Assembly: GCA_944372195.1 (NCBI GenBank)
Contig: CALVYK010000001.1
Coordinates: 47,644-111,643, forward strand
Direction: 5' to 3'
DNA: 64,000 nt
Source of the DNA: an uncultured Bacilli bacterium
GTDB lineage: Bacteria > Bacillota_I > Bacilli_A > RF39 > UBA660
In this document: positions 14,213 through 51,661 of the stretch, one piece after another
Layout of the letters: each line of letters begins with the position of its first letter
Position numbering within the stretch: position 1 is the first letter of the stretch
Notes under the pieces: model-generated
Database searches by the model: none
What the model was told of the DNA's origin: nothing
What the model saw: only the letters and a program-made list of their open reading frames with translations
Position numbers and translations under genes: made by a program

Positions 14213-14241
14213 ATTATAAATTAATTTAGTATAAAAATCAA
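14213..14241 (-). promoter_or_regulatory. minus-strand promoter for micro-ORF 3
   Basis: -35 TTGATT, 17-nt spacer, -10 TATAAT (complement of 14213-8). Confidence 0.55.
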
Positions 14242-14263
14242 TTATAAATTAACACAATATGAC

Positions 14264-14290
14264 AAAATTGTCACGGCATTAGTCATTTAA
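14264..14290 (+). promoter_or_regulatory. conserved upstream motif copy 3
   Basis: GACAAAATTGTCAC GGCATT AGTCATTTAA; the downstream 5'UTR is about 85% identical to 9560-9613. Confidence 0.4.
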
Positions 14291-14334
14291 TTGTAATAAT
14301 AATTTAATACAATTATTATGGAGGGAGAAATAAT

Positions 14335-16911: not shown

Positions 16912-16941
16912 AAAAACTAATGGGTTTCCATTAGTTTTTTG
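16912..16941. terminator. bidirectional intrinsic terminator
   Basis: AAAAAACTAATGG gttt CCATTAGTTTTTT. Confidence 0.8.
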
Positions 16942-17120: not shown

Positions 17121-17139
17121 ATATTTAATATTTGTTTGA

Positions 17140-17325
17140 AAGAGTATATATATTGATTAAATAGAGAGCTGGTGTTGGGTGAAAATCAGTTAAGAAATAT
17201 ATAGAAAGACATCAAACTATAAAATAATCGGTTAATCCCGTTAAAGATTTAAGAGCATAGAATTCTATGAAATAAGGTGGCACCGCGATATTATTCGTCC
17301 TTATATTTATAGGATTTTTTTAATT
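17140..17325 (+). promoter_or_regulatory. T-box riboswitch leader (Asp specifier GAC)
   Basis: Stem-I AGAGA; specifier context AAAGACA (GAC 17208-10); T-box sequence AAGGTGGCACCGCG at 17272-87; U-tract 17316-23. Confidence 0.75.
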
Positions 17326-24956: not shown

Positions 24957-27794
24957 ATGAAAAAAATCACTAACAAATTTATAAATAATACTATATATGC
25001 GCAAAAAGGGTTTACCCTAATAGAATTATTAGGCGTAATAATAATACTAGCAATAATAGCTTTAATAACATATCCAATAGTAGATAAATCAATTCAAAAA
25101 AGTAGAGAAAGTGCTTTGGAAAGAACAATCGAAAACATAGAAAAATCAGCCTATAATTATAGTGTTGAATATGATTTAGGTTATCCAAGAGAACAACAAA
25201 TATTAGAATTAAAAGAATTGGCTAACAAAGGATTTATAAGTGATAAAGAACATATCAATCCAGTAACCAATAATGAATTGGAGGGATGTGTGTTATATAG
25301 ATGGAATGAGGCAACTAGTCAATATTATTTTAAATATGCTGAACCATGCGTAAGAACAGAAATCGCACCAACAATGACATTAGTTTATGATAAAGAAAAT
25401 ATAAATGAAAATGACTGGCTAAATAAAAATATAATGGTAAATATAAATGGGACAGGCACAAAATATTATTATTGTATAGGAAATACAGAATGTGAGCCAA
25501 ACATAGAAGAAAATAAAACAAATGGAACAAAAATAATAATAAATGAAGGAACAAATGTATTGTGTGCCAAAGCAGAAAATGCATATGGCGAAAGTAAAGT
25601 AGTATGTACAGAGGAATTAAATTTAGATAAGACAGCGCCAAATATAGAAGGAATAGGGGATAAAACAGTTCAAAGGAATACGAATGTAGATTTAATAACA
25701 GGAGTAACATATAACGATGCATTATCAGGAATATCAGGCGAATTAATAATCGAGCCAACAATTGTAGATACATCAGTAACTGGAACAAAAGTAGTAAAAT
25801 ATAAAATAACAGATAAAGCAGGAAATACAAAAGAAGCAACAAGAAATATCATAGTGGATGCCCCAGCGCCAACAATAACATACAATTTAGTTGATAGCAG
25901 TTCTGTAAATAGTAATGGCTGGGCAAAGAGTAATTTCTTTGTAAGAGCAATAATCACAGATAATAGCGGAAGTGGAATCAATATTGCCAAAAGTTGTTCA
26001 AGTAATAGTTCAAGTGAATGTACGCCAAGCGCAAGCTTTACATCAATAACAAAAGACTTCTATATTCAAACTGAAGGAAATAATAGAATATGTATCGAAG
26101 TAACAGATAATAATAATAAAACATCAAAAGTATGTAGTAGTACCTACAAACTAGATAAGACATTACCAAATATAGCTGGAGTAGCTGATAAGACAGTACA
26201 AAGAAATACAACAGTAGACTTGAAAGCAGGAGTAACATATAGTGATGCATTATCAGGCATATCAGGAGATTTGATAATAGAACCTTCAAGTATAAGTACA
26301 TCAGTAACAGGAACAAAGACAGTAAAATATAAAGTAACAGATAAAGCGGGAAATACAAGAGAAGTTACAAGAAATATTATTGTCGATGCAGCCGCACCAA
26401 CAATAACATATAAATTAGTAGATAGTAGTTCAATAAATAGTAATGGCTGGGCAAAGAGTAATTTCTTTGTAAGGGCAACGATTACAGATAATAGTGGAAG
26501 TGGAATCAAGACTGCAAAAAGTTGTTCAAGTAATAGTTCGAGTGAATGTACGCCAAGTGCAACATTTACCGGAACAACCAAAGACTTCTATATAGAAGTA
26601 GAAGGAAATAATAGGTTATGTATCGAAGTAACCGATAATAATAATAAAACTTCAAAGCTTTGTAGTGATACCTATAAACTAGATAAGACAGCACCAACAG
26701 CCGGAACTGCAACATTTACAGGTACATTAGGAAGTAATAGTTGGTATACAAGTAATGTAACAGTAAATAAAGTAAATGGAAGCGATAGTTTATCAGGACA
26801 TTCAAGTACAACAAGTAATATAAGCAGTATAACATCAAATACAAGTGGAACAAAAGTAACAATAACAACAACAGATTTAGCCGGAAATAGTTCAACTAGA
26901 AATTATACAATAAAAGTTGATAAAAATAGTCCAACGATAACAGCAAAAAGTGGAACAGTAAGTATCACAGAGGGTGATAGCAATCCAACAAGTAATTACT
27001 TTACAGTAAGTTATGGAATAAGTGGCGGAAGTTTAAGTTGTAGTCCAACTAATACAAGTGGTTTGACATATGGAACAAGAACAGTTACATGTACAGCAAC
27101 TGGAGGTAATGGCAAAAAAGTTACTGCTACAAAACAAATTGAAGTCAATTACGGAGATATAAATTTATCATTTAAATACGTTGGCTCAAAAGCAACTCCA
27201 CAAACTCTTCCAGGAAAAGGAAATGGATACTATGTTCAAAATGTAAGCTGTGAAAATGGAACAGCAAAATGGAGTAATGATTTATGGTCTTTAACTAATG
27301 TTAGTGTTGAAAATGGTAAAATGATGTCATGCGTATTAACATTAGGCGATACTGCTACATATGATGATACAATTGATCAAACTTATTCAAATTTAAAACC
27401 TGAAAATATAGCTTCAGGAGTTCAAGTCGGTGATATTCTCGGAACTGTTGAAACACAAAAAACTTTAATTGCAATCATATATATAAATGGTTCAAAAACA
27501 TACGGCACTTTTTACAATGGTTCTTATTATGTGGCATCTAATAATATTGGACAATGGGGTGGTGCAGTTAGCAATCCAACCGGAAGAACATTAGTTGCTA
27601 CATCATTTATTTCTATGTCAGATTGTGGATTTAGAATTAATGGAGTTCAATATGTTGGCCTTTTTGGATTTGGTAATTTTACTGTAACTAGTGGCAAAAT
27701 AAACAATGTTATATTACAAAATGTTTCTGGTGTTACCAATTCTTTAGGCAATGGTGAAAATGGAACAATTTATATTTATGGGGAAGTACGCTAG
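24957..27794 (+). CDS. giant type-IV-pilin/pseudopilin-like modular protein with tandem Ig-like repeats
   Basis: Class III signal KGFTLIELLGVIIILAIIA; two 528-bp tandem repeats 25623-26150 and 26151-26678; C-terminal cassette. Confidence 0.75.
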   Translation: MKKITNKFINNTIYAQKGFTLIELLGVIIILAIIALITYPIVDKSIQKSRESALERTIENIEKSAYNYSVEYDLGYPREQQILELKELANKGFISDKEHINPVTNNELEGCVLYRWNEATSQYYFKYAEPCVRTEIAPTMTLVYDKENINENDWLNKNIMVNINGTGTKYYYCIGNTECEPNIEENKTNGTKIIINEGTNVLCAKAENAYGESKVVCTEELNLDKTAPNIEGIGDKTVQRNTNVDLITGVTYNDALSGISGELIIEPTIVDTSVTGTKVVKYKITDKAGNTKEATRNIIVDAPAPTITYNLVDSSSVNSNGWAKSNFFVRAIITDNSGSGINIAKSCSSNSSSECTPSASFTSITKDFYIQTEGNNRICIEVTDNNNKTSKVCSSTYKLDKTLPNIAGVADKTVQRNTTVDLKAGVTYSDALSGISGDLIIEPSSISTSVTGTKTVKYKVTDKAGNTREVTRNIIVDAAAPTITYKLVDSSSINSNGWAKSNFFVRATITDNSGSGIKTAKSCSSNSSSECTPSATFTGTTKDFYIEVEGNNRLCIEVTDNNNKTSKLCSDTYKLDKTAPTAGTATFTGTLGSNSWYTSNVTVNKVNGSDSLSGHSSTTSNISSITSNTSGTKVTITTTDLAGNSSTRNYTIKVDKNSPTITAKSGTVSITEGDSNPTSNYFTVSYGISGGSLSCSPTNTSGLTYGTRTVTCTATGGNGKKVTATKQIEVNYGDINLSFKYVGSKATPQTLPGKGNGYYVQNVSCENGTAKWSNDLWSLTNVSVENGKMMSCVLTLGDTATYDDTIDQTYSNLKPENIASGVQVGDILGTVETQKTLIAIIYINGSKTYGTFYNGSYYVASNNIGQWGGAVSNPTGRTLVATSFISMSDCGFRINGVQYVGLFGFGNFTVTSGKINNVILQNVSGVTNSLGNGENGTIYIYGEVR

Positions 27795-30632: not shown

Positions 30633-32225
30633 ATGGAATTATTTATATTATCTTTATTAAGTATGTTTTTATATGTATGTTTAGATTTAAAAAAATCTTT
30701 TCATATGTTACAACAAAATTGGTATAACGATGGAAATAGATATTTAAAATGGATTAACAACAACAGTAGATTTGTATTTTTATGGTTTGATTACTTATAT
30801 GTGTTTATTGTATTATTAGGGGTGTTTATAAATAATAATATTTTAAGTATTATTGTAACAATTTATTATTTGATTATATCTATTATTTTATATAATCGAT
30901 ATAAACACGAGCAAGTAAAAAAACCTCTTGCTTTTACTAGTAGAATTAAAAGAATGTGTGTTACTATTTTAATTATTTATAGTATACCAATTGTAACAAT
31001 TCTATTAACGTTTTGTTCGCAAAATGTATATTTATATTATTTTATAATAGGAAGTTTAATTTATTTTAATTATTATATAGTTTATTTAGCTAATATAATA
31101 AATAAACCAGTTGAAAAATTTGTATATTTATATTATAAAACTAAAGCAATTAAAAAATTAAAATCATTATCTCATATGAAAGTTGTAGCTGTAACAGGAA
31201 GTTATGGAAAAACTAGTACTAAAAATATTATAAGTGATATTTTAAATGTTAGATATATGGCTTTTCCAACACCTAAAAACTTTAATACTAACTATGGATT
31301 AATCAGAACAATTAATGAATATATTGATAAATATAATGATTATTTTATAGCTGAATTAGGAGCATTTAGAAGAGGAGATATTAGATCACGTGCTAGTATT
31401 GTTAAACCTAAGTATGGTGTATTAACTAAAATTGGAACTGCTCATTTAGATACTTTTGGTTCTATTGAAAATACAACAAAAACTAAATTTGAATTAATCG
31501 AATATTTACCTAAAGATGGAGTAGGATTTCTAAATATTGATGATGAGTTACAGGTAAATTATAAATTAAAAAACAATATTAGAATAGTTTGGTATGGATT
31601 ATCTGATAAAGCTGATGTATATGCTACAGATATTAAATATTCAAATAAAGGAATGAGTTTTAAAGTTCATTTTAAAGGTGATAAAAAATCTTATGAGTTT
31701 ACGACAAAATTATTAGGCGAGGCTAATGTTTATAATATTTTAGCTGGTATTGCCGTTGGTAAAGAATTAGGATTAAATATTGAAGAATTACAAAAAGGTG
31801 TATTACAAATTAAAACAATTGAACATCGATTAGAAATGAAAAAATATGGTAATATCACTTATATAGATGATGCTTATAATTCTAATCCAGTTGGTTCTAA
31901 AATGGCTTTAGATGTTTTAAAACTAATGCCAGGCAAAAAAATCATTATTACTCCAGGTATGGTTGAAATGGGCGATAAACAATACGAAGTAAATTATAAT
32001 TTTGGTAAATTTATAGCTGATAGTGTTGATTTAGCAATTTTAGTAGGAGCTCATCAAACTAAACCAATTCAAGATGGTATTAAAGATTCTAAGTTTGATG
32101 ATGATAAATTAGTTATTGTTAATGATGTAAAAGAAGCTATTAACATTGCTCAAAATTATTATAAAGGTAAAGAAGTTTATATTTTATTAGAAAATGATTT
32201 GCCAGATTTATTTAATGAAAAATAA
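30633..32225 (+). CDS. MurF-like Mur ligase with an N-terminal polytopic membrane domain
   Basis: About 170 aa with 5-6 TM helices replace the usual UDP-binding domain; P-loop VAVTGSYGKTSTK; MurF signature DDAYNSNP. Confidence 0.7.
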   Translation: MELFILSLLSMFLYVCLDLKKSFHMLQQNWYNDGNRYLKWINNNSRFVFLWFDYLYVFIVLLGVFINNNILSIIVTIYYLIISIILYNRYKHEQVKKPLAFTSRIKRMCVTILIIYSIPIVTILLTFCSQNVYLYYFIIGSLIYFNYYIVYLANIINKPVEKFVYLYYKTKAIKKLKSLSHMKVVAVTGSYGKTSTKNIISDILNVRYMAFPTPKNFNTNYGLIRTINEYIDKYNDYFIAELGAFRRGDIRSRASIVKPKYGVLTKIGTAHLDTFGSIENTTKTKFELIEYLPKDGVGFLNIDDELQVNYKLKNNIRIVWYGLSDKADVYATDIKYSNKGMSFKVHFKGDKKSYEFTTKLLGEANVYNILAGIAVGKELGLNIEELQKGVLQIKTIEHRLEMKKYGNITYIDDAYNSNPVGSKMALDVLKLMPGKKIIITPGMVEMGDKQYEVNYNFGKFIADSVDLAILVGAHQTKPIQDGIKDSKFDDDKLVIVNDVKEAINIAQNYYKGKEVYILLENDLPDLFNEK

Positions 32226-33132: not shown

Positions 33133-33155
33133 AAACTCTATTTAAGTAGAGTTTT
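33132..33155. terminator. bidirectional terminator
   Basis: AAAACTCTA tttaag TAGAGTTTT. Confidence 0.7.
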
Positions 33156-34544
33156 TAAGTGCTTTTTAACTTCATCAATATCACAAAATTCAATTATTTT
33201 ATCTTTTAATATTTGATAGTTTTCACTACCTTTACCAATTATTAAAACTATATCATCTTTTCGAGCAATATTAATTGCTTTTTTTATTGCTTCACTTCTA
33301 TCTAAAATAATTTCATAGTTTTTATAATCTTTAACCTTACTAACTAAATCATTGGCTATATCCATAGGATCCTCATTTCTTGGATCTTGACTAGTTACAA
33401 TAGCATAATCACAATTAGTTATAACATTATATCCTTTACTAGGTCTTTTAGATCTATCTCTTTCTCCTGGTTCAGAAAAAACAACAATTAATTTATTAAA
33501 TACTAAACTATTAATAAATTCCAATAATTTACTTATACCATTTGGAGTATGTGCATAATCAACAATAACTTTGAAATTTTGCCCCATATCAATATTTTCT
33601 AATCGGCCACTGATTTTAATATTTTTAACTTTAGCTATTAATTCATTTAAGTCGTACCCTAAACTAACTAAAGCAAGTAGGGCAGCACTTAAATTGTAAA
33701 CATTAAACATAGCTATTAAAGGACTTACTATTTTATATTCTTTATTTTGATAAACAATTGTAAACGTTGTTTTGTCAATATCTAGTTTAACATCTTTAAA
33801 GTATAAATCATTGTCACTACCTTTACCATATGTATATATTTTTTTACAATGTTTAGCTACTTCATTAAAATGTTCATCATCTTTATTTAAAATACAAGGA
33901 CCTATCGTATTATCAAATAATTTACATTTACAGTTAATATAATTTTCTAAAGTTTTATGAGTATTTAAATGTTCTTTTGTAATGTTTGTTATAATACTAC
34001 AATTAAATTTAATTCCATCAATTCTATTATAATAGAGAGCTTCACTAGATACTTCCATACTAACATTTTTAATACCATTTTTAACCATATCATAAAATAA
34101 TGGTATTGTTTTGTCTAAGCCTGGGGTCGTATTAAGTGTTTTTTCTTTATAATTATTATAGTTAATTCCATTTGTTCCTATATAAGCACAATTAGATAAT
34201 AGTTCATAAATAATTGTTGCAACAGTTGTTTTACCATCAGTGCCGGTTATTCCTATCATATTTAATTTTTTAGTAGGGTAATCATAAAATTTATTTATAA
34301 TTTCAACATAAGTTTCATTCGGATTATCTACTTTAATAATAGGAACTTTTTTATTTCCAATATCTTTTTTAACTATAACTGCGCTAGCTCCTTTATTAAT
34401 AGCATCATCAATAAATAGGTGTCTATCCATTGTTTTAGTATCAGTACAAATAAATAAATCACCTTTTTTAATATTTGCTGAACTTGTTTTAATACCAGTT
34501 ATATCTATATCATAATCACAATTTATTAATTCTTTTAATTTCAT
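33138..34544 (-). CDS. second MurE-type Mur ligase (UDP-MurNAc-L-Ala-D-Glu : amino acid ligase paralog)
   Basis: P-loop IGITGTDGKTTV; complete three-domain MurE fold; motif DPRNEDP rather than the canonical DNPR. Confidence 0.75.
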   Translation of the reverse strand: MKLKELINCDYDIDITGIKTSSANIKKGDLFICTDTKTMDRHLFIDDAINKGASAVIVKKDIGNKKVPIIKVDNPNETYVEIINKFYDYPTKKLNMIGITGTDGKTTVATIIYELLSNCAYIGTNGINYNNYKEKTLNTTPGLDKTIPLFYDMVKNGIKNVSMEVSSEALYYNRIDGIKFNCSIITNITKEHLNTHKTLENYINCKCKLFDNTIGPCILNKDDEHFNEVAKHCKKIYTYGKGSDNDLYFKDVKLDIDKTTFTIVYQNKEYKIVSPLIAMFNVYNLSAALLALVSLGYDLNELIAKVKNIKISGRLENIDMGQNFKVIVDYAHTPNGISKLLEFINSLVFNKLIVVFSEPGERDRSKRPSKGYNVITNCDYAIVTSQDPRNEDPMDIANDLVSKVKDYKNYEIILDRSEAIKKAINIARKDDIVLIIGKGSENYQILKDKIIEFCDIDEVKKHLKTLLK

Positions 34545-36262
34545 TTTTTCACCTTCTTAATTATTATTATAGCACATACACTAGCAAGAAAAATAATTAT
34601 ATAATTATTGTTTATATTTGTTTGTGCTTCTTCCACTATAAAATTTTCGTATTCATTAATTAAATTATTTATGTTTTCTACATTTCCATCAAAATTAATA
34701 AAATAATTTTTAACTTCATTATTAATACTATCATAATTTTCATTATCTTTATATTTATTATAAACATCAATTAAGTTATTTATTTCATCCGGTATTTCAT
34801 ATAAAGATGGGGCAATATCAGGTGTTTTATAATAATTAGTTGCATTTTCATAAGCGCTAGCTATTTGATATAAAGTTGTTTCGGTTTGACTCATTATTTC
34901 TAATCCATATGGTAAATCATTATAATATCCCATAGGAACACTAATAGCAGGATAACCAATTAATGGAGCTGTACTAGAACTTGCTGTATATATCTGTTCA
35001 TATTTAGCTTCTTCATTAGTAAATAGTTTAGTTTTTAAAGTAGGGTAGATAATAGCATCATAATTTTTAAATCTATTATTTGCAGTTTTAATATTATTAT
35101 TACGAATACTTATATAATTTTTATAACTATCAGTTAGTTTATAATCGTTGTTACAATAATATCCATTATATCCTTCAATATTTTGTGTGTAGCCACCATT
35201 TTTAATTAAATCATCTAAACTTTTTATTTTACTTGATGTTCCTTTTAAATATTCGTTAAAGTTATAACACATTGTAGTTGCATCAAATTTATAAGTTAAG
35301 GAAAAACTATCTATATAAGTTATTTCAGCTCCTAATTCTTTTAATTTATCAATTGCCTCATTCATCATATCATAAATAAATTGATCTGTTTTACCATAAG
35401 TAATACTAGTATTATTAGTATTAGGATTCATAAATCCAGATACAACAGCAATTTTAATACCATTTAAATCTTTATTTAAACAATCCTCATATTTAATATC
35501 TTTATCATCTAAAATATCTAAAATAACTGCATTATCACTTACATATTTAGTTATAACACCAACAACGTCTCTTGTTTCTTCAAATTTAATAACACCACTA
35601 GTGTTTATTAGATCATAAGATGGTCTTAAGCCAACAACACCATTGGCACTACTAGGAACTCTAATTGAACTACCTGTATCAGTTCCTAGTGCATAGACAG
35701 CTAGATTAGCAGCTACTGAAACTGCACTCCCACCTGATGAACCATAAGCTGAATAATTTGTATTAAAGGCATTATAAGTATAACCAAAACTGCTATGAGT
35801 GTATGATGCATTAAAAGCAAATTCATCCATATTAGCTTTGCCGATTATAATTGCACCATTATCGATTAATTTTTGAACGGCATAACTATTTTCATAAGGG
35901 TAAGAATCTAATAAAGCTTTAGTACCATTAGTTGTTGGAAGTCCTTTAACATCAATATTATCTTTAACGATAACAGGTAGTCCAAATATTAAGCTTCTTC
36001 TTCCTTTTTCTTGATATTCTATATCTAATTTTTTAGCTTCTTCAATTGCATTTTCATTAATTGTAATTAAAGCATTATATTGCTCATTATATTCATTGAT
36101 TCGATCTAAATATAATTTGACTATTTTTTCATAAGTTAAATAACCTTGATCAACATATTCTTGTATTTCATATATATTTAATTCATTAATATCGATTATT
36201 GCTTGTTCTAATGCATTAATTTTAAAAGGAATTAATAATAAAAGTAATAAAAGCTTTTTCAT
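34541..36262 (-). CDS. secreted or membrane-anchored amidase-signature (GatA-like) enzyme
   Basis: Signal peptide, C-terminal TM helix, AS motif GGSSGGSAVSVAA...GTDTGSSIRVPSS; stop codon overlaps the MurE-like start (ATGA). Confidence 0.75.
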   Translation of the reverse strand: MKKLLLLLLLIPFKINALEQAIIDINELNIYEIQEYVDQGYLTYEKIVKLYLDRINEYNEQYNALITINENAIEEAKKLDIEYQEKGRRSLIFGLPVIVKDNIDVKGLPTTNGTKALLDSYPYENSYAVQKLIDNGAIIIGKANMDEFAFNASYTHSSFGYTYNAFNTNYSAYGSSGGSAVSVAANLAVYALGTDTGSSIRVPSSANGVVGLRPSYDLINTSGVIKFEETRDVVGVITKYVSDNAVILDILDDKDIKYEDCLNKDLNGIKIAVVSGFMNPNTNNTSITYGKTDQFIYDMMNEAIDKLKELGAEITYIDSFSLTYKFDATTMCYNFNEYLKGTSSKIKSLDDLIKNGGYTQNIEGYNGYYCNNDYKLTDSYKNYISIRNNNIKTANNRFKNYDAIIYPTLKTKLFTNEEAKYEQIYTASSSTAPLIGYPAISVPMGYYNDLPYGLEIMSQTETTLYQIASAYENATNYYKTPDIAPSLYEIPDEINNLIDVYNKYKDNENYDSINNEVKNYFINFDGNVENINNLINEYENFIVEEAQTNINNNYIIIFLASVCAIIIIKKVKK

Positions 36263-36329
36263 TTACAATCACCACACTTATTTTACCACACTTTTTCAAT
36301 AATTGAATAGAATAAAATAGGTGATTATA

Positions 36330-37634
36330 ATGAATATTAAAGATGATTCAAGAAAAGTAAATAAAGGTGACATATTTGTTGCTTTAAAAAAAGTTAATGA
36401 TGGTCATAAGTATGTATTGGATGCTATTAAAAATGGGGCTAGTAAAGTAGTAGTTAGTGATGGTGATTATGAAGTTGAAACGCTAAAAGTAAAAGATACT
36501 CATGAATATTTAGTAAATTACTTATATGATAATTATTATGATAAGATAAAAAATTTAAAATTAATTGGGATGACTGGAACTAATGGTAAAACGACAACCT
36601 GTTTTTTGATATATCAAGCTTTAAATAAATTGGGTATAAAGTGTGCATATATTGGAACAATTGGCTTCTATTTAGATAAAAAAATTAAACCATTAAATAA
36701 TACTACTCCAGATATATTAGAAATATATGAATTATTGTTAGAATGTGTAGATAATGATTATGAATATGTAGTAATGGAATGTAGTAGTCATGCACTAGAT
36801 ATGCATAGATTAGATAAATTAGAATTTAAATATGGGATTTTTTCTAACTTAACTCAAGATCATTTGGATTATCATAAGACTTTAGAAAATTACATAAAAG
36901 CTAAACAAAAACTATTTGATAAAGTAACTATTAAAACATTTGTTAATAGTGATGATAAATATAAAGATTACTTTATTAGAGATAACACAATAACATATGG
37001 TTTAAATGGAGATTATAAATTAAGTGATATAAATCTTAAGGAAAGAACTTTTAAAGTTAATAATATTACTTATAAAACTAATTTAATCGGGGAACATAAT
37101 ATATATAATTTATTAGTTGTAATAGCCTTATTAAGTGAATTAAAATTAGATACCAAAGTAATAGAAGAACTAACATGTCCTCCTGGTAGAATGGATATTG
37201 TGAATTATAAAGACAATATGATTGTAATAGATTACGCTCATACACCAGATGCGGTTAGTAAAATATTAGATTCTATTAAAGAATTAAATTTTAATAAAAT
37301 TATAACGATAATTGGGTGTGGTGGGGATCGAGATAGTTTTAAAAGACCAATTATGAGCAAAATTGCTTGTGATAATAGTGATCATGTCATTTTTACAAAT
37401 GATAATCCAAGATATGAAAATCCTAATAATATTATTAGTGATATGTTACATAATCTTGACAAATTTAATTATGAAATTATCTTAAATCGTGAAAAAGCAA
37501 TCATAAAGGGTATACAAAGGTTAGAAAAAAATGATATACTATTAGTGCTTGGAAAAGGACATGAAAATTATCAAATTATAAATGGAGTAAAACATCATTT
37601 TGATGATAAAGAAATTGTACTAAAAAATATATAA
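36330..37634 (+). CDS. murE: UDP-MurNAc-L-Ala-D-Glu--2,6-diaminopimelate ligase
   Basis: IGMTGTNGKTTT and the meso-DAP signature DNPRYENP; start moved to the ATG preceded by TAGGTGA. Confidence 0.85.
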   Translation: MNIKDDSRKVNKGDIFVALKKVNDGHKYVLDAIKNGASKVVVSDGDYEVETLKVKDTHEYLVNYLYDNYYDKIKNLKLIGMTGTNGKTTTCFLIYQALNKLGIKCAYIGTIGFYLDKKIKPLNNTTPDILEIYELLLECVDNDYEYVVMECSSHALDMHRLDKLEFKYGIFSNLTQDHLDYHKTLENYIKAKQKLFDKVTIKTFVNSDDKYKDYFIRDNTITYGLNGDYKLSDINLKERTFKVNNITYKTNLIGEHNIYNLLVVIALLSELKLDTKVIEELTCPPGRMDIVNYKDNMIVIDYAHTPDAVSKILDSIKELNFNKIITIIGCGGDRDSFKRPIMSKIACDNSDHVIFTNDNPRYENPNNIISDMLHNLDKFNYEIILNREKAIIKGIQRLEKNDILLVLGKGHENYQIINGVKHHFDDKEIVLKNI

Positions 37635-37648: not shown

Positions 37649-38638
37649 GTGTTAATTTTAGCAAAAGCGGTACTAGCATTCATGATAGGGTTTATATTAT
37701 CAATTATATTTGGGGTAATTTTAATACCATTATTGAAAAAATTAAATATAAAACAAACGGTAAGTATATTTTTATCTAAACACAAGGACAAAGAAGGAAC
37801 ACCAACAATGGGAGGATTAATATTTATAATTCCAACTATTTTATCAGCTGTTATTTTGCTTTTAACTAATAAATTAGAAATGACTTATAATTTAGGTATT
37901 GTTTTATTTGTTTTTTTAGCTTATGGATTATTAGGATTTATCGATGATTATTTAATTATTAGAAGACATAATAATTTTGGCTTAACAGAATTACAAAAAC
38001 TAGTAGGTCAAATATTAATAGCAATTGTATTTTTTATTTTATTTAGAGCAGGTGGTAGAGAGCCGGTATTAGAAATATATACATTTAATTTAACTATACC
38101 TTTAGGTTGGTTTTATTGGGTATTAATTTTACTTATGTTAGTAGCTACTACTAATGCAGTTAACTTAACAGATGGTTTAGATGGTTTAGCTGGTGGTTTG
38201 TCAGCAATTGCCTTTTTAGCTTTTGGGATGATAGCTTGGGCATCACTTGGGATTGAAGGTAATGAAGATATTGGTGTATTTTGCTTCATATTAGTGGGAG
38301 CTTTAATAGCATTCTGTTTCTTTAATACATATCCTGCTAAAGTGTTTATGGGTGACACTGGATCTTTAGCATTAGGTGGTACATTAGCTGCTGTATCAAT
38401 TGTTTCAAGTCATGAATTAACTTTAATAGTTGTAGCCGGTGTATTTGTAGTTGAAACTTTAGTATGCATTATTCAACGAGTATCAGTAAGATTTACGGGT
38501 AAAAGAATATTTTTAATGACACCTTTACATCATCATTTTGAAAAACTAGGTTGGCAAGAATTAGATATAGTTAAAATGTTTTGGTTTTTTGGAATTGTTT
38601 TAGCTGCAATAGCAATATTATGGGGTGTTTGGATGTAA
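37649..38638 (+). CDS. mraY: phospho-N-acetylmuramoyl-pentapeptide transferase (GTG start)
   Basis: Ten-TM MraY motifs (NAVNLTDGLDGLA; HHHFE). Confidence 0.9.
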   Translation: MLILAKAVLAFMIGFILSIIFGVILIPLLKKLNIKQTVSIFLSKHKDKEGTPTMGGLIFIIPTILSAVILLLTNKLEMTYNLGIVLFVFLAYGLLGFIDDYLIIRRHNNFGLTELQKLVGQILIAIVFFILFRAGGREPVLEIYTFNLTIPLGWFYWVLILLMLVATTNAVNLTDGLDGLAGGLSAIAFLAFGMIAWASLGIEGNEDIGVFCFILVGALIAFCFFNTYPAKVFMGDTGSLALGGTLAAVSIVSSHELTLIVVAGVFVVETLVCIIQRVSVRFTGKRIFLMTPLHHHFEKLGWQELDIVKMFWFFGIVLAAIAILWGVWM

Positions 38639-38663
38639 AAACTGCTTAAAACAGTTTTTTTTA
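38637..38663 (+). terminator. intrinsic terminator after mraY
   Basis: AAACTG cttaaaa CAGTTT TTTTTT. Confidence 0.65.
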
Positions 38664-38716
38664 TTGCAATTAATTAAAAAAAATTGTATAATTAATTAAG
38701 AATAGGAGCTGTTAAA

Positions 38717-40402
38717 ATGAAAAATATAACCAAAAATTTACAAAAAGATGCTTTTACCTTAGCAGAATTGATAGGTGTTGTAATAATATTAGCAATAATA
38801 GCTTTATTAGCATTTCCGCCTATATTGAATGCAATTCGACAAACAAAAGGGAAAATAAGTGATGCAAGTAAAGAAATATTATATAATGCGACAGGGCTTT
38901 ATGTTAGTGATAACCTTGACTATTATCCTAAGTATAATGGGAATACTTATTGTGTAACTATAAATGAGTTGACTAAAGGTGAATATTTACCTACTAAAGT
39001 ATATGATTCAGTAACTGGTAATGAAATCTCACAAGATAGTATGATAGAAGTAAATGTTGATAATGGTATTTATAATTACAATTTAAATAATGAATGTGAA
39101 GAATATTACAAATATGGCCCATTGACAAAAGTTTTATTAGGACAATATAATGAATCAAATACAACTGGATTAGTAAAAGATAGCTCAAACGAAAATTTAT
39201 ATTATTATACTGGGACAAATGAACAAGTAGCTAATAATTATTTATGGTATGGCGGCCATCAATGGCGAGTATTAGAGTTTAATATAGATGAAAATACTTT
39301 AACTTTAATAACACAACAGCCATTAACAGCAATCCAACCCGCTAGTTCTGCTTGGGAAACCAAAGAAGCATATGAATCAAGCTATATCAATACATGGTTA
39401 AATGATTACTTTTGGAATAGTTTAGATAGTAGCATACAAAATAATATATTAGATAGTATATTTAATGTTGGAATATATACTGATGTCGATGAGATAATGG
39501 CAATTAATAAAGTAGGACTATTAGATGAGGAACAATATAAAAGAGCAGGAAATACAGATTCATTTTTAGATATAAAAGATCATTTTTGGTTAGGTAATAG
39601 ATATGTTTCGTCTTACGTTCGCTGCGTCTACAACGATGGTCGCCTCTTCCGCACTTCCGTTTCGTCTGCGTTTGGCGTGCGTGCAGTTATAAAAATTTCT
39701 GATATAACCATCACTGAAGGGGATGGTACTCTTACAAGCAATTATCAAGTAGCAAATAAAGCAACAGATACTAATAATGTACAAGTAGGAGAATATATCA
39801 ATGTGCCATATAGTGGAAGTGACAGTGCTTGTGGAAGTGATAATATGTGCACATTTAGAGTAGTAAGTAAAGATAGTGATAGTATTAAAGTAGTACTAAA
39901 TGGATTACTTCCAACAGCAAGTGCATATGGAAGTTCAACAACAATAAGTACGAGTCATACAATATATACCCCACTGAATACATTTGTTGAAGGAATAAGT
40001 GACACATATCGATATACCGGAAATAAAATATTCTATATAGGAGATTATCCATCTGGTTCAAATTATAAAGATGTACAAAATGAAATATTGGGAGCAAGTG
40101 TGGGATTACCAACAGTAGGAGAAATGTTTAGTGGCAATGACATTGATTTAAGTACATCAAGTACCAAAACATTTGTTGATATAAATACAATCGAAAATCC
40201 AACTGTATCAAATTACTATTGGACAATGAATGGATATAGTTCGTCTCTCGTTCGCAGCGTCCACAGCAATGGCCACCTCAGCGACAATAGTCCTTCGGTT
40301 GCGTTCGGCGTGCGTGCAGTTATATATTTGAAGTCAGGGACTTCAGCCATAACCTTCACAGGGGGAGATGGAAAAGCTCAAAAGCCTTATACTTTAGATT
40401 AA
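38717..40402 (+). CDS. pilin-like (prepilin N-terminal) secreted protein with two GC-rich SVRCV/GVRAVI (DUF1566-like) repeats, inserted in the dcw cluster
   Basis: N-terminus AFTLAELIGVVIILAIIALLAFPP; own promoter TTGCAA...TGTATAAT; repeats at 39601-39682 and 40241-40323. Confidence 0.7.
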   Translation: MKNITKNLQKDAFTLAELIGVVIILAIIALLAFPPILNAIRQTKGKISDASKEILYNATGLYVSDNLDYYPKYNGNTYCVTINELTKGEYLPTKVYDSVTGNEISQDSMIEVNVDNGIYNYNLNNECEEYYKYGPLTKVLLGQYNESNTTGLVKDSSNENLYYYTGTNEQVANNYLWYGGHQWRVLEFNIDENTLTLITQQPLTAIQPASSAWETKEAYESSYINTWLNDYFWNSLDSSIQNNILDSIFNVGIYTDVDEIMAINKVGLLDEEQYKRAGNTDSFLDIKDHFWLGNRYVSSYVRCVYNDGRLFRTSVSSAFGVRAVIKISDITITEGDGTLTSNYQVANKATDTNNVQVGEYINVPYSGSDSACGSDNMCTFRVVSKDSDSIKVVLNGLLPTASAYGSSTTISTSHTIYTPLNTFVEGISDTYRYTGNKIFYIGDYPSGSNYKDVQNEILGASVGLPTVGEMFSGNDIDLSTSSTKTFVDINTIENPTVSNYYWTMNGYSSSLVRSVHSNGHLSDNSPSVAFGVRAVIYLKSGTSAITFTGGDGKAQKPYTLD

Positions 40403-40431
40403 ACTGATAATAATGATTTATCAGTTTTTTT
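40401..40431 (+). terminator. intrinsic terminator
   Basis: AAACTGATAA taatgat TTATCAGTTT TTTT. Confidence 0.75.
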
Positions 40432-40504
40432 GTCTGTTAATGTAACATTTTAATATTTTAAAAATCATATAATTATGATATAATTGAAAATAAGGAAGTG
40501 AAAT

Positions 40505-41587
40505 ATGAAAGTTATTGTAAGTGCAGGTGGAACAGGTGGGCACATTTATCCTGCTTTAGCTATCATAAATAAAATAAAAGAAAGAGAACCTAATAGTGAG
40601 TTTTTATATATAGGTACTCACAATAGAATGGAAAAAGATATAATACCAAAATATAACATTCCTTTTAAACAAATTGAAATATATGGATTTAATAGGAAAC
40701 GTTTATTAAAAAATATAAAGACAGTTAAATGCTTAATAAAGGCAAATAAAGAGTGCAAAAAAATAATTAAATCTTTTAATCCTGATATAGTAATTGGTTT
40801 TGGAGGATATGTTACAGCGCCAGTTATTAAGATGGCTAAAAAGTTAGGATATAAAACATTTATTCATGAACAAAATAGTATTCCAGGTAAAGCTAATTTA
40901 TATTTAAGTAACTACGCCGATTTAATAGGTGTTTCATTTAAATCAAGTAAGGAATATTTTCCAAAAGATAAAACTATTCTAACAGGCAATCCTTGTGGGG
41001 AAGATGCCAAAAATGTGAAAGCTTGTGACAAAAAAGAATTTAATTTAAGCGAAAATAAAAAGTTGGTTTTATTTGTTATGGGATCATTAGGGGCTTCAAC
41101 TGTAAACGATTTTTTAATAAAAACAATGTCTTTATTTAATAACAAAGATTACGAAATATTGTTTGTTACTGGTAAAAATGATTATGAAAAAATAAAACAA
41201 ATTAATTTTCCAAGAAATATAAAAGTGGTTCCTTATATTGATAATATGAAACGAGTGATGAAAAAAACTGATGTTATGGTTACAAGAGCAGGAGCTAGTA
41301 CATTAAGTGAAATAATTTCTTTACAAATACCAAGCATAATTATTCCAAGTCCATTTGTACCTAATAATCATCAGTATAAAAATGCTTTAGATTTAGTAAA
41401 TAATGATGCTGCTATTATGATTGAAGAAAAGAATTTAAAGGGTGATATAATCGTTAGAACTATTGATAATTTAATAAATGATGAAAATAAACTATTAAAA
41501 ATGAAACATAATTTAGAAAAGTTACAAGTTAACAATAGTGCAACTATAATATATGAGAATTTAAAGAAAATAATAGATAGGAAGTAA
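40505..41587 (+). CDS. murG: UDP-GlcNAc:lipid I GlcNAc transferase
   Basis: N-terminus SAGGTGGHIYPALA. Confidence 0.9.
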   Translation: MKVIVSAGGTGGHIYPALAIINKIKEREPNSEFLYIGTHNRMEKDIIPKYNIPFKQIEIYGFNRKRLLKNIKTVKCLIKANKECKKIIKSFNPDIVIGFGGYVTAPVIKMAKKLGYKTFIHEQNSIPGKANLYLSNYADLIGVSFKSSKEYFPKDKTILTGNPCGEDAKNVKACDKKEFNLSENKKLVLFVMGSLGASTVNDFLIKTMSLFNNKDYEILFVTGKNDYEKIKQINFPRNIKVVPYIDNMKRVMKKTDVMVTRAGASTLSEIISLQIPSIIIPSPFVPNNHQYKNALDLVNNDAAIMIEEKNLKGDIIVRTIDNLINDENKLLKMKHNLEKLQVNNSATIIYENLKKIIDRK

Positions 41588-50263: not shown

Positions 50264-50332
50264 AATTGTATGAAATATTACAATTTTTTTATTTTTTATT
50301 TAAAAAATGATATAATGTAATAGGTGATAAAA

Positions 50333-51657
50333 ATGTATGATAATAAAAAAATGTTTATTTTAGGTATGGCAAGATCTGGTTATGAAGTAGCTAAAGTACT
50401 AGCTAAACATAATTGTGATATTGTTATTACCGATATGAAAGAACAAGATGAAGAAAAAGTAAAAGAATTAAAAGAGTTGGGAGTTAATTTAATAATAACT
50501 GATAAACCAGCAGATTTATTAGATGATAGTTTTAGTTATGTTGTTAAAAATCCTGGAATTAAATTAGATCATCCTGTTTGTTTGAAAGCTAATGATTTAA
50601 ATATTCCAATTATTAATGAATTAGAAGTAGCTTATCATTATTTACCTAAAAATGTAAAAATAGTAGGTATTACAGGAAGTAATGGTAAAACAACAACAAC
50701 AACATTAACTTATAACATATTAAAAGAAGCAGGATTACCTGTTCATTTAGGTGGCAATATTGGTTATCCTATGTGTTCATTATTAGATAGTGTTAAAGAA
50801 AACGATATTTTAGTTTTAGAAGTTTCAGGTCATCAAATGCATGATTTTAAAGATTTTAAAATTGATATTGGTGTCTTAACTAATTTAACTCAGGTTCATT
50901 TAGACCATTTTGGAACTTATGAAAATTATATTAAAAATAAAGTAAAAATATTTAATCATCATACTAGTAATGATATTGCCATATTAAATGGTAATAACAT
51001 AGATGTATTAAATAATACAAAAGATATAAAATCTAAAAAAATATATTTTTCAGCTTCTAAAGAATGTGATGCTTGTATCAAAAATGATGCTATTTACTAT
51101 AAAGAAGAAATTATAAAACTAAATGAAATAAAATTAAAAGGTAATCATAACTATGAAAATATTATGTGTGCGGTTATTGTAGCTAAACAATTTAATGTTT
51201 CAAATGAAATAATTAAAAAAGTATTAAGTAGTTTTGGTGGAGTAGAACATAGATTGGAATATGTAAGAACATTAAATACAAGAGAATTTTATAATGATTC
51301 AAAAGCAACTAATGTTGTTTCAACTATTATTGCCTTAGATTCATTTAACAAACCAACTTATTTATTATTAGGTGGGTTAGATAGAGGACATTCTTTTGAT
51401 GATTTATTACCACATATGAAAAATGTAAAAGCTGTTGTTTGTTATGGACAAACTAAAGATAGAATATTAGATTTCTGTAATAAAAATAATATTACTTGTT
51501 ATAAAAAAGACAACTTAGAAGAATCAATAAAAAAAGCTTACGAATTATCAGTTGATAACAGTGTTATCTTGTTAAGTCCAGCCTGTGCCTCTTGGGATCA
51601 ATACGCTAAATTTGAAGATAGAGGAGATGAGTTTAAGAAAGTAGTGAATAGTTTAAA

Positions 51658-51661
<4 letters not shown>
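50333..51661 (+). CDS. murD: UDP-N-acetylmuramoylalanine--D-glutamate ligase
   Basis: GITGSNGKTTTTTL; start set after -10 GATATAAT (50309-16) and RBS TAGGTGA. Confidence 0.88.

What the first reader, a model, noticed from the sequence alone, without database searches (positions are those of the whole stretch)
38640..40431. Independent pilin-like gene inserted between mraY and murG, with two GC-rich repeat islands
The dcw order murE-mraY-[X]-murG-murB-divIB-ftsA-ftsZ is interrupted by a 561-aa protein with a prepilin-type N-terminus (AFTLAELIGVVIIL). It is framed by its own terminator (38637-63), promoter (TTGCAA..TGTATAAT) and terminator (40401-31).

Inside it, two segments of about 80 bp (39601-39682 and 40241-40323) are locally about 55% GC in a genome of about 25% GC. 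They use rare codons (CGC, TCG, GCG) and share a 17-nt identical core GGCGTGCGTGCAGTTAT. They encode the repeated motif SxVRxVxxxGxL..S.AFGVRAVI (DUF1566 / SVRCV-like). A weaker version (GIRPVITV) ends the 2249-3208 protein.

The compositional anomaly could reflect gene conversion from a foreign donor, selection on RNA or DNA structure, or a recombination hot-spot.
Basis: seen in the sequence. Interest (0 to 1): 0.65.

Follow-up and report, generated by a model that had tools for sequence, protein, structure and literature searches.

The report
Retroelement-diversified regions in a pilin-like gene
The two GC-rich islands are the variable regions that a diversity-generating retroelement (a reverse transcriptase that rewrites chosen codons) leaves in a surface protein, here a type IV pilin-like protein sitting far from the retroelement itself, so the oddity is explained by a known mechanism.

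Summary
ORF 38717-40402 (561 aa) lies between mraY and murG. It holds the only two stretches of at least 50% GC in 64 kb of 24.7% GC DNA.

The islands (39602-39686 and 40235-40319) are variable regions (VRs) of a diversity-generating retroelement (DGR).
- They are adenine-poor.
- They share one 85-nt scaffold and differ mainly at codon positions 1-2 of about 13 codons.
- Homologues vary exactly there, and 98.6% of residues are ones reachable from AAC.
- Homologues conserve the scaffold even at synonymous sites.

Relatives carry the full cassette next to a homologous gene: target, hairpin, template repeat (TR), MutS-like gene, bAvd, then a reverse transcriptase with SIGNLTSQ and YMDD motifs. 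In L040 one TR serves both VRs, and all 31 mismatches fall on TR adenines.

The window has no TR and no RT. Its copy is therefore a remote target, or possibly a fossil one. The 17-nt "core" is the GC-rich 3' boundary where TR-VR homology ends.

AT-rich decayed versions in other homologues rule out amino-acid constraint.

Novelty is modest: this is a new member of a known kind. Pilin-type DGR targets are barely described.

The parts
38637..38663 (+). A/T-rich hairpin plus T-run after mraY; a possible terminator
   Evidence: 8-bp stem, -5.3 kcal/mol, z = -1.7 (weak). The consensus scanner did not flag it because the stem has too few G-C pairs.
38664..38692 (+). Promoter-like site, TTGCAA-17 nt-TATAAT
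   Evidence: 10 of 12 matches. This is a consensus match only; function was not tested.
38717..40402 (+). Gene for a 561-aa modular pilin-like protein with two DUF6273 modules; a DGR target
   Evidence: 572 homologues were found. All 63 aligned members hit DUF6273 and 56 of 63 hit N_methyl.
38717..38752 (+). Putative class III (prepilin-type) leader peptide MKNITKNLQKDA, with Ala instead of Gly at -1
   Evidence: Homologues read KKG|FTLVEL and Gly is at least 90% conserved at this column. Cleavage is inferred, not tested.
38753..39136 (+). Pilin-like N-terminal domain: hydrophobic alpha-1 helix FTLAELIGVVIILAIIALLAF plus a small globular head (residues 13-140)
   Evidence: The family profile matches solved type IV pilins and GspG over profile positions 5-94 (PilE1 E = 7.4e-9). 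The AF2 model has pLDDT 80-90 here, with a long N-terminal helix. This domain diverges ordinarily among homologues.
39137..39706 (+). First DUF6273 (C-type-lectin-like) module, residues about 141-330, ending in VR1
   Evidence: Pfam DUF6273 scores 27.9 bits against a cut-off of 23.5. Published work describes DUF6273 as a C-lectin-like DGR target domain with the VR at its C-terminus (PMC11792537, PMC10743442). The fold was not confirmed here.
39602..39686 (+). VR1, DGR variable region 1 (first GC-rich island)
   Evidence: 52% GC and 11% A. Against the TRs of L030 and L040, 18 of 26 TR-adenine sites are changed but only 6-7 of 58 other sites (p = 1e-7 and 3e-7). Homologues are hypervariable at residues 300-319.
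39674..39690 (+).
   Evidence: In L038 the TR ends GGCGTGCGTGCAG|ATTCC and its VRs end GGCGTGCGTGCAG|TTATA, so homology stops right after GCAG.
39749..40351 (+). Second DUF6273-like module, residues about 345-545, ending in VR2
   Evidence: An internal repeat with module 1 carries the same C-terminal motif. The AF2 model is poor here.
40235..40319 (+). VR2, DGR variable region 2 (second GC-rich island)
   Evidence: 54% GC and 18% A. Against the TRs of L036 and L038, 12-13 of 25-26 adenine sites are changed but only 5-6 of 58-59 other sites (p = 1e-4). Homologues are hypervariable at residues 511-530.
40307..40323 (+). GC-rich 3' boundary of VR2 (IMH-like); second copy of the 17-nt core
40329..40345 (+). 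Small hairpin TGAAGTC-AGG-GACTTCA, 9 nt after VR2; possibly the cruciform element that helps DGR homing
   Evidence: It is conserved and longer in L038 (z = -3.7 for that stretch). Its role is inferred from knowledge of the Bordetella phage DGR and was not tested.
40401..40434 (+). Terminator-like hairpin (10-bp stem) plus T-run after the gene
   Evidence: -6.5 kcal/mol, z = -4.6, and 0 of 200 shuffles fold as well.

Best explanation
The gene encodes a modular surface protein with two parts.
- The N-terminus is type IV pilin-like: a class III leader, a hydrophobic alpha-1 helix and a small head domain.
- It is followed by two DUF6273 (C-type-lectin-like) modules.

The last 85 nt of each module's fold core is a variable region (VR1, VR2) of a diversity-generating retroelement.

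**How it works, as shown in relatives.**
- A non-coding template repeat (TR) of the same 85 nt is transcribed. In the TR, about 10 codons are AAY and 26 positions are adenine.
- The TR has a conserved 5' hairpin leader and a spacer of about 190 nt.
- A DGR reverse transcriptase copies it into cDNA, misincorporating opposite adenines only. It works with bAvd and a small MutS-domain-I-like protein (MSL).
- The cDNA replaces a VR. The 3' limit is fixed by the GC-rich boundary GGCGTGCGTGCAG.
- Each homing event rewrites about 13 codons to any of about 15 amino acids. All non-adenine bases are reset to the TR sequence.

**Why the islands look as they do in a 25% GC genome.** This explains the adenine-poor, GC-rich composition, the rare codons and the identical scaffold in both islands and across species.

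**Status of the window's copy.** The window has no TR and no RT, so the copy between mraY and murG is a non-adjacent (remote) target served in trans. A less likely alternative is a recently orphaned target whose VRs are frozen.

**Shown.**
- The VR signature in the window.
- TR-VR pairs and full cassettes in relatives.

**Inferred.**
- That this genome holds such a cassette.
- That the protein is processed and displayed on a type IV filament.
- That the variable face binds ligands.
For: **1. Anatomy in the window.**
- The two islands are one 85-90-nt scaffold repeated at an offset of 633 nt. Their differences are concentrated at codon positions 1-2 of about 13 codons.
- A content is 11% and 18%. 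VR1 is the only stretch of 60 nt or more with at most 10% A on the + strand of the whole window.

**2. Variation among homologues.** In 63 homologues the C-terminal 420 residues are well conserved, except at residues 300-319 and 511-530. At 22 variable columns, 98.6% of 1381 residues belong to the set reachable from AAC. Asn is the commonest. K, E, Q, M and W are nearly absent, against 84% in-set elsewhere.

**3. Scaffold DNA.** The scaffold is conserved in homologues of 55-80% protein identity, including at synonymous sites. Column entropy is 1.46 at TR-adenine sites against 0.62 elsewhere (p = 4e-9).

**4. TRs found.** A search with an all-Asn peptide hit a 55-aa ORF lying over a TR.
- L010 VR1 differs from that TR at 14 sites, all adenines.
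- In L040, L041 and L042 one TR serves both VRs of one pilin-like target: 15 and 16 mismatches, all at adenines, and 0 of 58 elsewhere.

**5. Complete cassettes next to homologues.** L038, L040-L042 and L043 carry target, hairpin, TR, MutS_I-like gene, bAvd and RVT_1 in that order. The RT carries SIGNLTSQ and YMDD.

**6. Window VRs against these TRs.**
- VR1: 18 of 26 adenine sites changed against 6 of 58 others (p = 1e-7).
- VR2: 12-13 of 25-26 against 5-6 of 58-59 (p = 1e-4).
- The window's 17-nt core equals the TR/VR 3' boundary of L038.

**7. Natural controls.**
- Some modules have AT-rich decayed versions of the same motif. They occur in L009, L013, L021, L026, L007 (first module) and the window's own 2249-3208 protein.
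- L021 pairs decayed VRs with a truncated TR.

**8. Positive control for the method.** Acutalibacter phage Fontainebleau has a classical VR, TR and RT arrangement.

**9. Literature.**
- DUF6273 is a known DGR target domain.
- MSL-containing DGRs and remote targets are described.
- Targets with several VRs are known.
Against: - The window holds no TR, leader, spacer, MSL, Avd or RT. The rest of the genome could not be searched, because the exact protein is not on record and the one genome-collection scan found only chance hits.
- No sampled TR fits the window's VRs perfectly. The best fits leave 5-7 non-adenine mismatches of 58, whereas the active-looking loci show 0 of 58.
- VR1 and VR2 best fit different TR types. 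They also differ from each other at 9 sites that are not adenine in the L030 TR. So there are two TRs, or drift since the last homing, or recombination.
- The window copy lacks the conserved hairpin element that follows many target genes.
- The nearest homologue (L039) carries almost the same variable codons. No homing has therefore happened since that tract was shared, although the tract is only about 1.7% diverged.
- The lectin fold was not confirmed. AF2 gave pLDDT 62.6 for the whole protein and 45 for the domain alone, and Foldseek against PDB found nothing.
- N_methyl is below Pfam's cut-off for this protein.
Confidence: 0.88

Rival explanations
1. Fossil target. The islands were written by a DGR in the past, but this lineage has lost the cassette or no longer homes into this copy. 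The VRs are frozen and slowly drifting.
For: - The window has no TR or RT.
- 5-7 non-adenine mismatches remain to the best TRs, and the two VRs fit different TR types.
- The window copy has no downstream hairpin leader.
- L039 keeps the same variable codons.
- Relatives show every stage of decay: a TR without an RT nearby (L036), half a TR (L032), and a truncated TR with AT-rich VRs (L021).
- In the 553-aa group, many samples share identical VR alleles.
Against: - The islands are still 52-54% GC, with 55% GC at third positions, in a genome of 11.5% GC3. Little AT-biased decay has therefore occurred.
- The IMH-like boundary is intact in both VRs.
- Remote targets tens to hundreds of kb from the RT are normal for chromosomal DGRs (PMC5758913), and only 64 kb was visible.
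- The L039 comparison covers only about 1.7% divergence.
Confidence: 0.3
2. Cassette-type gene conversion or recombination among paralogous modules, as in pilE/pilS antigenic variation, is the main source of the islands and their variability. No retroelement is involved.
For: - The family is multi-copy and mosaic. A 765-nt tract (39548-40312) is 98.3% identical to L039 while the flanks are about 80% identical, and the right breakpoint falls at the end of VR2.
- The same two modules occur on a different N-terminal domain in L039.
- Identity to the other homologues also changes from stretch to stretch.
Against: - Recombination cannot produce adenine-specific differences from an all-Asn template (0 of 58 non-adenine mismatches in L040).
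- It cannot produce an amino-acid repertoire restricted to the AAC-reachable set.
- It does not explain the adenine depletion.
- TR, bAvd and a DGR-type RT sit next to homologues.

Recombination is best seen as an added process that uses the conserved scaffolds, not as the cause.
Confidence: 0.07
3. The GC-rich composition is forced by amino-acid constraint, by selection on local RNA or DNA structure, or reflects a patch of foreign GC-rich DNA.
For: - The motif S.VR.V...G.L...GVRAVI is conserved in all homologues.
- Small hairpins follow the VRs.
Against: - The same motif is encoded with AT-rich codons at 26-34% GC in several homologous modules and in the window's own 2249-3208 protein.
- Synonymous sites of the GC-rich versions match the TR.
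- Folding z-scores in the window are unremarkable: -0.8 and -1.5.
- The boundaries of the islands coincide with the TR-VR homology, not with a transfer tract.
Confidence: 0.02

Closest known systems
Chromosomal DGRs of 'Architecture D' (MSL plus avd accessory genes), Wu et al. 2018, PMC5758913
   Same: The relatives' cassettes carry a TR, a small MutS-domain-I-like (MSL) gene, bAvd and an RT with the [I/L]GxxxSQ motif, all on one strand. They are not phage-borne and have non-adjacent targets.
   Different: - Here the order is target, hairpin, TR, MSL, avd, RT.
- The host is a very low-GC gut Firmicute-like lineage.
- The cassette sits at a conserved site before spoVT-tatD-ksgA.
- The window itself shows only a remote target.
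DUF6273 targets of Faecalibacterium prophage DGRs and 'tentaclins' (PMC11792537, PMC10743442)
   Same: The same Pfam domain, with the VR at its C-terminal end. It is described as C-type-lectin-like.
   Different: Those are phage receptor-binding or tail proteins encoded next to the RT. This one is a chromosomal pilin-like protein with two such modules, and five scans of viral contigs found nothing.
Treponema denticola DGR with remote targets (TvpA family), as summarised in PMC5758913
   Same: One cassette serves several paralogous targets scattered over the chromosome.
   Different: The Treponema element belongs to the HRDC-containing Architecture C. That its targets are lipoproteins is from my own knowledge. 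Here the cassette has MSL plus Avd and the targets have pilin-type leaders.
Bacteroides DGRs that diversify type V pilus tip adhesins (bioRxiv 10.1101/2024.11.15.621889)
   Same: The concept is the same: gut bacteria use DGRs to vary an adhesive pilus component (abstract seen).
   Different: Type V pili are a different machinery with different sorting, in a different phylum. Here the N-terminus is type IV pilin-like.
Single DGR targets with tandem VR-bearing C-lectin domains (PB-PSB1 DGR 4, PMC10907252)
   Same: Several VRs lie in one target gene, each closing its own lectin-type domain.
   Different: That target has a vWA domain plus three C-lectin domains and belongs to conflict systems of multicellular bacteria. 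It is not pilin-like.
Modular type IV pilins of monoderm bacteria (Streptococcus sanguinis PilB and PilC; from my own knowledge, not tested here)
   Same: A pilin N-terminus carries grafted functional modules and acts as an adhesin on the filament.
   Different: Those modules are not hypervariable. No assembly genes or processing could be checked here.
Neisseria pilE/pilS antigenic variation (my own knowledge)
   Same: A type IV pilin is varied by templated replacement of short segments.
   Different: That system uses RecA-dependent gene conversion from silent DNA cassettes, not adenine-mutagenic reverse transcription.

Membership tests
Diversity-generating retroelement (target / variable region) | A cognate TR in the same genome whose differences from the VR are essentially all at TR adenines | not testable with these tools
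   The window has no TR. The rest of the genome is not available: one search found no record and one search gave only chance hits.
Diversity-generating retroelement (target / variable region) | Adenine-specific TR-VR mismatches in the homologous family | tested here: met
   L040-L042: 15 and 16 mismatches, all at adenines, and 0 of 58 elsewhere. L010: 14 of 14. L031: 12 of 13 and 10 of 13. Window VR1 and VR2 against heterologous TRs: 18/26 vs 6/58 and 12/25 vs 5/59.
Diversity-generating retroelement (target / variable region) | A DGR-clade reverse transcriptase ([I/L]GxxxSQ motif plus YxDD) with an accessory Avd | tested here: inconclusive
   Present beside homologues: L038, L040-L043 have RVT_1 and bAvd, with SIGNLTSQ and YMDD. 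Absent from the 64-kb window. The genome-wide state is unknown.
Diversity-generating retroelement (target / variable region) | A GC-rich IMH-type 3' boundary where TR-VR homology ends | tested here: met
   GGCGTGCGTGCAG closes both window VRs. It also closes the TR and VRs of L038, after which TR (ATTCC) and VR (TTATA) diverge.
Diversity-generating retroelement (target / variable region) | Hypervariability confined to the VR, with an AAY-codon amino-acid repertoire | tested here: met
   Entropy peaks at residues 300-319 and 511-530. 98.6% of residues are in the AAC-reachable set and Asn is the commonest.
Diversity-generating retroelement (target / variable region) | Ongoing diversification of this particular copy | tested here: inconclusive
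   The nearest homologue keeps 24 of 28 variable codons, but the shared tract is only about 1.7% diverged. No read-level data are available.
DUF6273 / C-type-lectin-fold DGR target domain | A match to Pfam PF19789 above the gathering score | tested here: met
   27.9 bits against a cut-off of 23.5. All 63 aligned homologues match, best E = 3.3e-13.
DUF6273 / C-type-lectin-fold DGR target domain | A C-type-lectin-like three-dimensional fold with the VR on an exposed face | tested here: inconclusive
Type IV pilin / pseudopilin (class III signal peptide proteins) | An N-terminal methylation and cleavage motif G|F-x-x-x-E followed by a hydrophobic helix | tested here: inconclusive
   The window protein reads DA|FTLAELIGVVIILAIIALLAF. 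F+1 and E+5 are present but Ala stands at -1. N_methyl scores 15.5 bits, below the 21.2 cut-off, and the GspG and ComGC N-terminal hits are weak. Family level: 56 of 63 hit N_methyl, and the profile hits PilE1, PilA, MshA and GspG structures.
Type IV pilin / pseudopilin (class III signal peptide proteins) | A prepilin peptidase and filament assembly genes (PilB/PilC/PilD or ComG) in the genome | not testable with these tools
   None is present among the window ORFs scanned with Pfam. The rest of the genome is unseen.

The most novel reading that the evidence does not exclude
A lineage of very low-GC gut Firmicutes runs a chromosomal MSL-Avd-RT retroelement. It diversifies a whole paralogous family of surface-filament subunits. 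These subunits are type IV pilin-like, and in at least one relative they are TasA/camelysin-like.

Each subunit carries two independently rewritten lectin modules. Remote copies are embedded in core operons such as dcw. The conserved VR scaffolds also serve as recombination anchors that shuffle modules between paralogues and lineages. Expression of the RT operon may be phase-variable through a (GT)n tract in its promoter.

This would be a Gram-positive counterpart of the DGR-diversified type V pilus adhesins of Bacteroides.
Probability: 0.35. Interest if true: 0.6.

Novelty: new member of a known kind. Interest (0 to 1): 0.4.

Why it matters
**A compositional puzzle becomes a mechanism.** Short, adenine-poor, GC-rich, rare-codon islands at the ends of repeated modules in an AT-rich genome are a practical fingerprint of DGR variable regions. 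The fingerprint works even when the retroelement lies far away and annotation pipelines would miss the link.

**Biological meaning.** The protein is probably a hypervariable adhesin or receptor shown on a type IV filament of a poorly known gut bacterium. By inference from the L040 TR, there are about 10^14 possible peptide variants per module.

**State of the literature.** Pilin-type DGR targets are mentioned only in passing, as a 'G-type pilin' domain listed among rare target domains in PMC11661182. Type V pilus adhesins in Bacteroides have drawn attention. A type IV counterpart in Firmicutes would extend that theme.

**Annotation.** The gene's place inside the dcw cluster is incidental. Homologues sit in at least seven other contexts.

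Tried and rejected
**TR search inside the window.** Nothing was found beyond the two VRs.
- The 17-mer with 3 mismatches.
- Low-stringency blastn and a degenerate scaffold regex.
- The whole leader-TR-spacer of L038.

**RT, Avd and MSL search in the window and loci.** Motif regexes and phmmer with the Fontainebleau and L038 proteins found none in the window or the other target loci. The RT appeared only in the phage control L029 and in cassette loci L038 and L040-L043; MSL also in L030.

**Five viral-contig scans.** All were empty, so the element is not phage-borne in that collection. The scans used the VR 3' end, the protein family and three TR-like patterns. The first TR pattern was also one base off the real TR (TCA against TCT).

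**Adenine-biased self-repeat screen.** The first 26 homologue loci gave nothing because those copies lack a TR. The TR was found only through the all-Asn peptide trick.

**Structure.**
- The whole-protein AF2 model was usable only for residues 11-330.
- Foldseek against PDB was uninformative.
- The domain-only model with a shallow alignment was worse, at pLDDT 45.

**Register error.** Part (the L036 and L038 VR rows) was one base out of register and is disregarded.

**Rfam.** Only a T-box was found, and nothing at the locus.

**Explanations considered and rejected.** These were amino-acid constraint, foreign GC-rich DNA, RNA-structure selection, and pilS-like cassette conversion as the primary cause. 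See the rival explanations.
Full report
**The observation**

The window is 24.7% GC. ORF 38717-40402 (+) encodes 561 aa. It lies between MraY (37649-38638) and MurG (40505-41587). Upstream is a Mur ligase. Downstream are MurB, an FtsQ/DivIB-type protein, FtsA and FtsZ, all confirmed with Pfam.

A sliding composition profile shows two sharp GC peaks inside the gene.
- 39602-39691 is 52% GC and 11% A. 40235-40324 is 54% GC and 18% A.
- These are the only places in 64 kb where a 90-nt window reaches 50% GC.
- Third-position GC is 55% in the islands against 11.5% in 24 other genes.
- The islands use codons that are nearly absent elsewhere: CGC 0.4, CTC 0.3, TCG 1.6 and GTC 1.6 per 1000.
- The 17-mer GGCGTGCGTGCAGTTAT occurs exactly twice, against 0.03 expected.

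**Anatomy of the islands**

Laid side by side at an offset of 633 nt, the islands are one scaffold:

TAT AGT TCG TCT nnC GTT CGC nnC GTC nnC nnC nnT GGy nnC CTC nnC nnC nnT ... TCG nnT GCG TTy GGC GTG CGT GCA G.

- They differ almost only at the first two positions of about 13 codons.
- VR1 is the only stretch of the + strand with at most 10% adenine over 60 nt or more.
- The residues at the differing codons (Y, C, N, D, R, F, T, S, V, L, H, P) can all be reached from AAC by changing its adenines.

This is the signature of a variable region (VR) of a diversity-generating retroelement (DGR). There, a reverse transcriptase copies a template repeat (TR) faithfully except opposite adenine.

**Test 1: variation among homologues**

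The protein has hundreds of relatives: 572 at E of 0.001 or better.
- In alignments of 27 and 63 of them, the C-terminal 420 residues are strongly conserved except at residues 300-319 and 511-530, where column entropy jumps.
- At 22 variable columns, 98.6% of 1381 residues lie in the AAC-reachable set, against 84% elsewhere in the modules.
- Asn is the commonest residue. K, E, Q, M and W are almost absent.

**Test 2: DNA of homologues**

I read 40 related loci.
- Most modules have the same GC-rich scaffold, conserved even at synonymous sites, in proteins only 55-80% identical.
- Across 26 distinct in-register VRs, entropy is 1.46 at TR-adenine positions and 0.62 elsewhere (p = 4e-9).
- Several modules carry AT-rich versions of the same peptide motif at 26-34% GC. 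They occur in L009, L013, L021, L026, the first module of L007, and the window's own 2249-3208 protein.

Amino-acid constraint therefore does not require GC-rich coding.

**Test 3: finding the template and the enzyme**

The window has no TR and no RT. Neither did the first 26 homologue loci.

A predicted all-AAC template matched the TR of a classical DGR in Acutalibacter phage Fontainebleau. That phage has VR 3763-3856, TR 4478-4571 and the RT immediately downstream, and 16 of 19 mismatches are at TR adenines. It served as a positive control.

A protein search with an all-Asn peptide then hit a 55-aa ORF lying over a genuine TR, about 100 nt downstream of a homologous target gene. The TR is identical in two samples whose VRs differ.

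Looking up further homologues and the RT gave complete cassettes in L038, L040-L042 and L043. Their order is:
- a pilin-like target of about 565 aa with two VRs;
- the hairpin CACCTTGCC-N8-GGCAAGGTG;
- an 85-nt TR;
- a conserved spacer of about 190 nt;
- a MutS-domain-I-like gene of 136 aa;
- bAvd of 113 aa;
- an RT of 324-332 aa.

The RT has the DGR-specific SIGNLTSQ motif and YMDD. About 45 clusters share at least 70% identity with it.

In L040-L042 a single TR accounts for both VRs of the one target. VR1 has 15 mismatches and VR2 has 16. All lie at TR adenines, and 0 of 58 non-adenine sites differ.

The cassette sits at a conserved chromosomal place before spoVT-tatD-ksgA. Five scans of viral contigs were empty.

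This layout corresponds to the MSL-containing 'Architecture D' of Wu et al. 2018. That paper also documents remote targets for DGRs that are not phage-borne.

**The window's copy against these templates**

- VR1 differs from the L030 and L040 type of TR at 18 of 26 adenine sites, but at only 6-7 of 58 others (p = 1e-7 and 3e-7).
- VR2 best fits the L036 and L038 type: 12-13 of 25-26 adenine sites against 5-6 of 58-59 others (p = 1e-4).
- The TR of L038 ends GGCGTGCGTGCAG|ATTCC and its VRs end GGCGTGCGTGCAG|TTATA.

This is the counterpart of the IMH of the Bordetella phage element, a comparison drawn from my own knowledge.

A small hairpin, TGAAGTC-AGG-GACTTCA, follows VR2 by 9 nt and is conserved in L038. 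It may correspond to the cruciform that aids homing. This is inference.

**What is not shown**

- The cognate TR and the RT of this genome were not seen.
- The best TRs leave 5-7 non-adenine mismatches, and the two VRs fit different TR types. The genome therefore has two TRs, or the VRs have drifted, or recombination has mixed them.
- The window copy also lacks the hairpin element found after the target gene in 14 of the 35 loci held at that point.
- Relatives show all stages of decay: a TR with no RT nearby (L036), half a TR (L032), and a truncated TR beside AT-rich VRs (L021).

A fossil target is thus a live alternative, which I put at about 0.3. Against it, the islands have barely decayed in a genome with extreme AT pressure, and only 64 kb was visible.

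**Mosaicism**

The nearest relative, P0029 in L039, has the same two modules on a different N-terminus: a Peptidase_M73, TasA/camelysin-like signal and domain.
- Nucleotide identity to the window is 98.3% over 39548-40312, from just before VR1 to the end of VR2. It is about 80% on both sides.
- Within that tract the variable codons are nearly the same: 24 of 28.
- No homing has therefore occurred since the tract was shared, and recombination has moved a VR1-to-VR2 segment between lineages.

**The protein**

- The family profile matches solved type IV pilins and GspG over the first 90 or so residues (PilE1 E = 7e-9).
- 56 of 63 members hit N_methyl.
- The window protein itself is sub-threshold and has Ala at -1 where at least 90% of homologues have Gly.
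- AF2 gives a confident long N-terminal helix and small head (pLDDT 80-90), a fair first module (70-85) and a poor second half.
- Fold searches did not confirm the lectin fold.

The window has no pilus assembly genes.

Homologues sit in at least seven other contexts, so the dcw position is lineage-specific and incidental:
- after an Asn/Asp-tRNA synthetase;
- before pgk;
- before hrcA;
- after mfd;
- after lgt;
- after an M50 peptidase;
- before a Mur ligase.

**Comparison with the literature**

- DUF6273 is an established DGR target domain.
- Several VRs in one target are known.
- MSL accessory genes and remote targets are known.
- A 'G-type pilin' domain is listed among rare target domains in one survey.
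- No paper in the searchable library combines DGRs with type IV pilins in any detail.

**Verdict**

The finding is a real feature, fully explained by a known mechanism. It is a new member of a known kind, with a moderately interesting twist: type IV pilin-like, double-VR, remote targets of a chromosomal MSL-type DGR in a low-GC gut lineage.

Noticed in passing
L039:1974-3764 compared with window 39137-40402: The same two DUF6273 modules are fused to a TasA/camelysin-type (Peptidase_M73) N-terminus instead of a pilin one. A 765-nt tract (window 39548-40312) is 98.3% identical, while the flanks are about 80% identical. The right breakpoint falls at the 3' end of VR2, which suggests recombination anchored on VR scaffolds.
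   Followed up: partly
L030:651, L038:12065, L040:9227, L041:2194, L042:2434, L043:9220: The promoter-like site of the MSL-bAvd-RT operon has a (GT)n tract between TTGACA and the -10-like box. The tract has 5, 9, 9, 9, 9 and 11 units in the six loci, giving spacers of 14 to 26 nt. This may be a slipped-strand phase-variation switch for DGR expression.
   Followed up: partly
L003:11707-11733, L010:2234, L011:5597, L012:10726, L021:8901, L030:335, L032:390, L033:3672, L034:11739, L038:11751, L040:8915: A conserved element of about 100 nt with an invariant hairpin, CACCTTGCC-N8-GGCAAGGTG, follows many target genes. In some loci it leads into a full TR, in others into a truncated TR (L021, L032), and in others into nothing. 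The window's copy lacks it. Its role is unknown; it could be the 5' part of the DGR RNA or a relic of cassette duplication.
   Followed up: partly
L021:7137-9004: A natural control. This target gene has AT-rich, decayed VRs (32-34% GC) and is followed by a TR truncated after about 35 nt. IS256-type transposases lie upstream.
   Followed up: partly
window 24957-27794: A second prepilin-type protein of 945 aa (N_methyl 29.2 bits) carries internally repeated Ig-like surface domains (repeat families D2 and D3). It shares its N-terminal DNA with the finding's gene at 74% over 91 nt. No pilus assembly genes lie nearby.
   Followed up: partly
window 2249-3208: A 319-aa protein has an ordinary signal or anchor N-terminus. 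Its C-terminus carries an AT-rich (26% GC), non-diversified version of the DUF6273 closing motif (...DYGIRPVITVYKY). Pfam gives no hit.
   Followed up: partly
window 17128-17305: A T-box leader (Rfam RF00230, 115 bits) lies upstream of the aspartyl/asparaginyl-type tRNA synthetase gene at 17339-19072.
   Followed up: no
window 9500-16916: Two tandem FtsX/MacB-type permease genes (11042-13525 and 14335-16911) are 71-79% identical at the DNA level. Repeated promoter-like intergenic units lie around them (repeat families D1, D6, D7 and D9 at 10289-10919 and 13510-14258).
   Followed up: no
window 22-450, 30633-32225, 33138-34544(-), 36321-37634, 50324-51661: There are five Mur-ligase-family genes in 64 kb. 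The dcw cluster has no murD or ftsW between mraY and murG, and a MurD-like gene sits 10 kb downstream. An amidase (34541-36262, minus strand) is paired with one of the ligases.
   Followed up: no
L032:401-643: A chimeric ORF after a target gene. The 5' half of a TR (SSSNVRNVNNNGN) runs into an AT-rich copy of the target's 3' end (GIRPVIYLKSNITFTGGKGTAQSPYELQ). This suggests that TRs arise as partial duplications of the target's last module.
   Followed up: no
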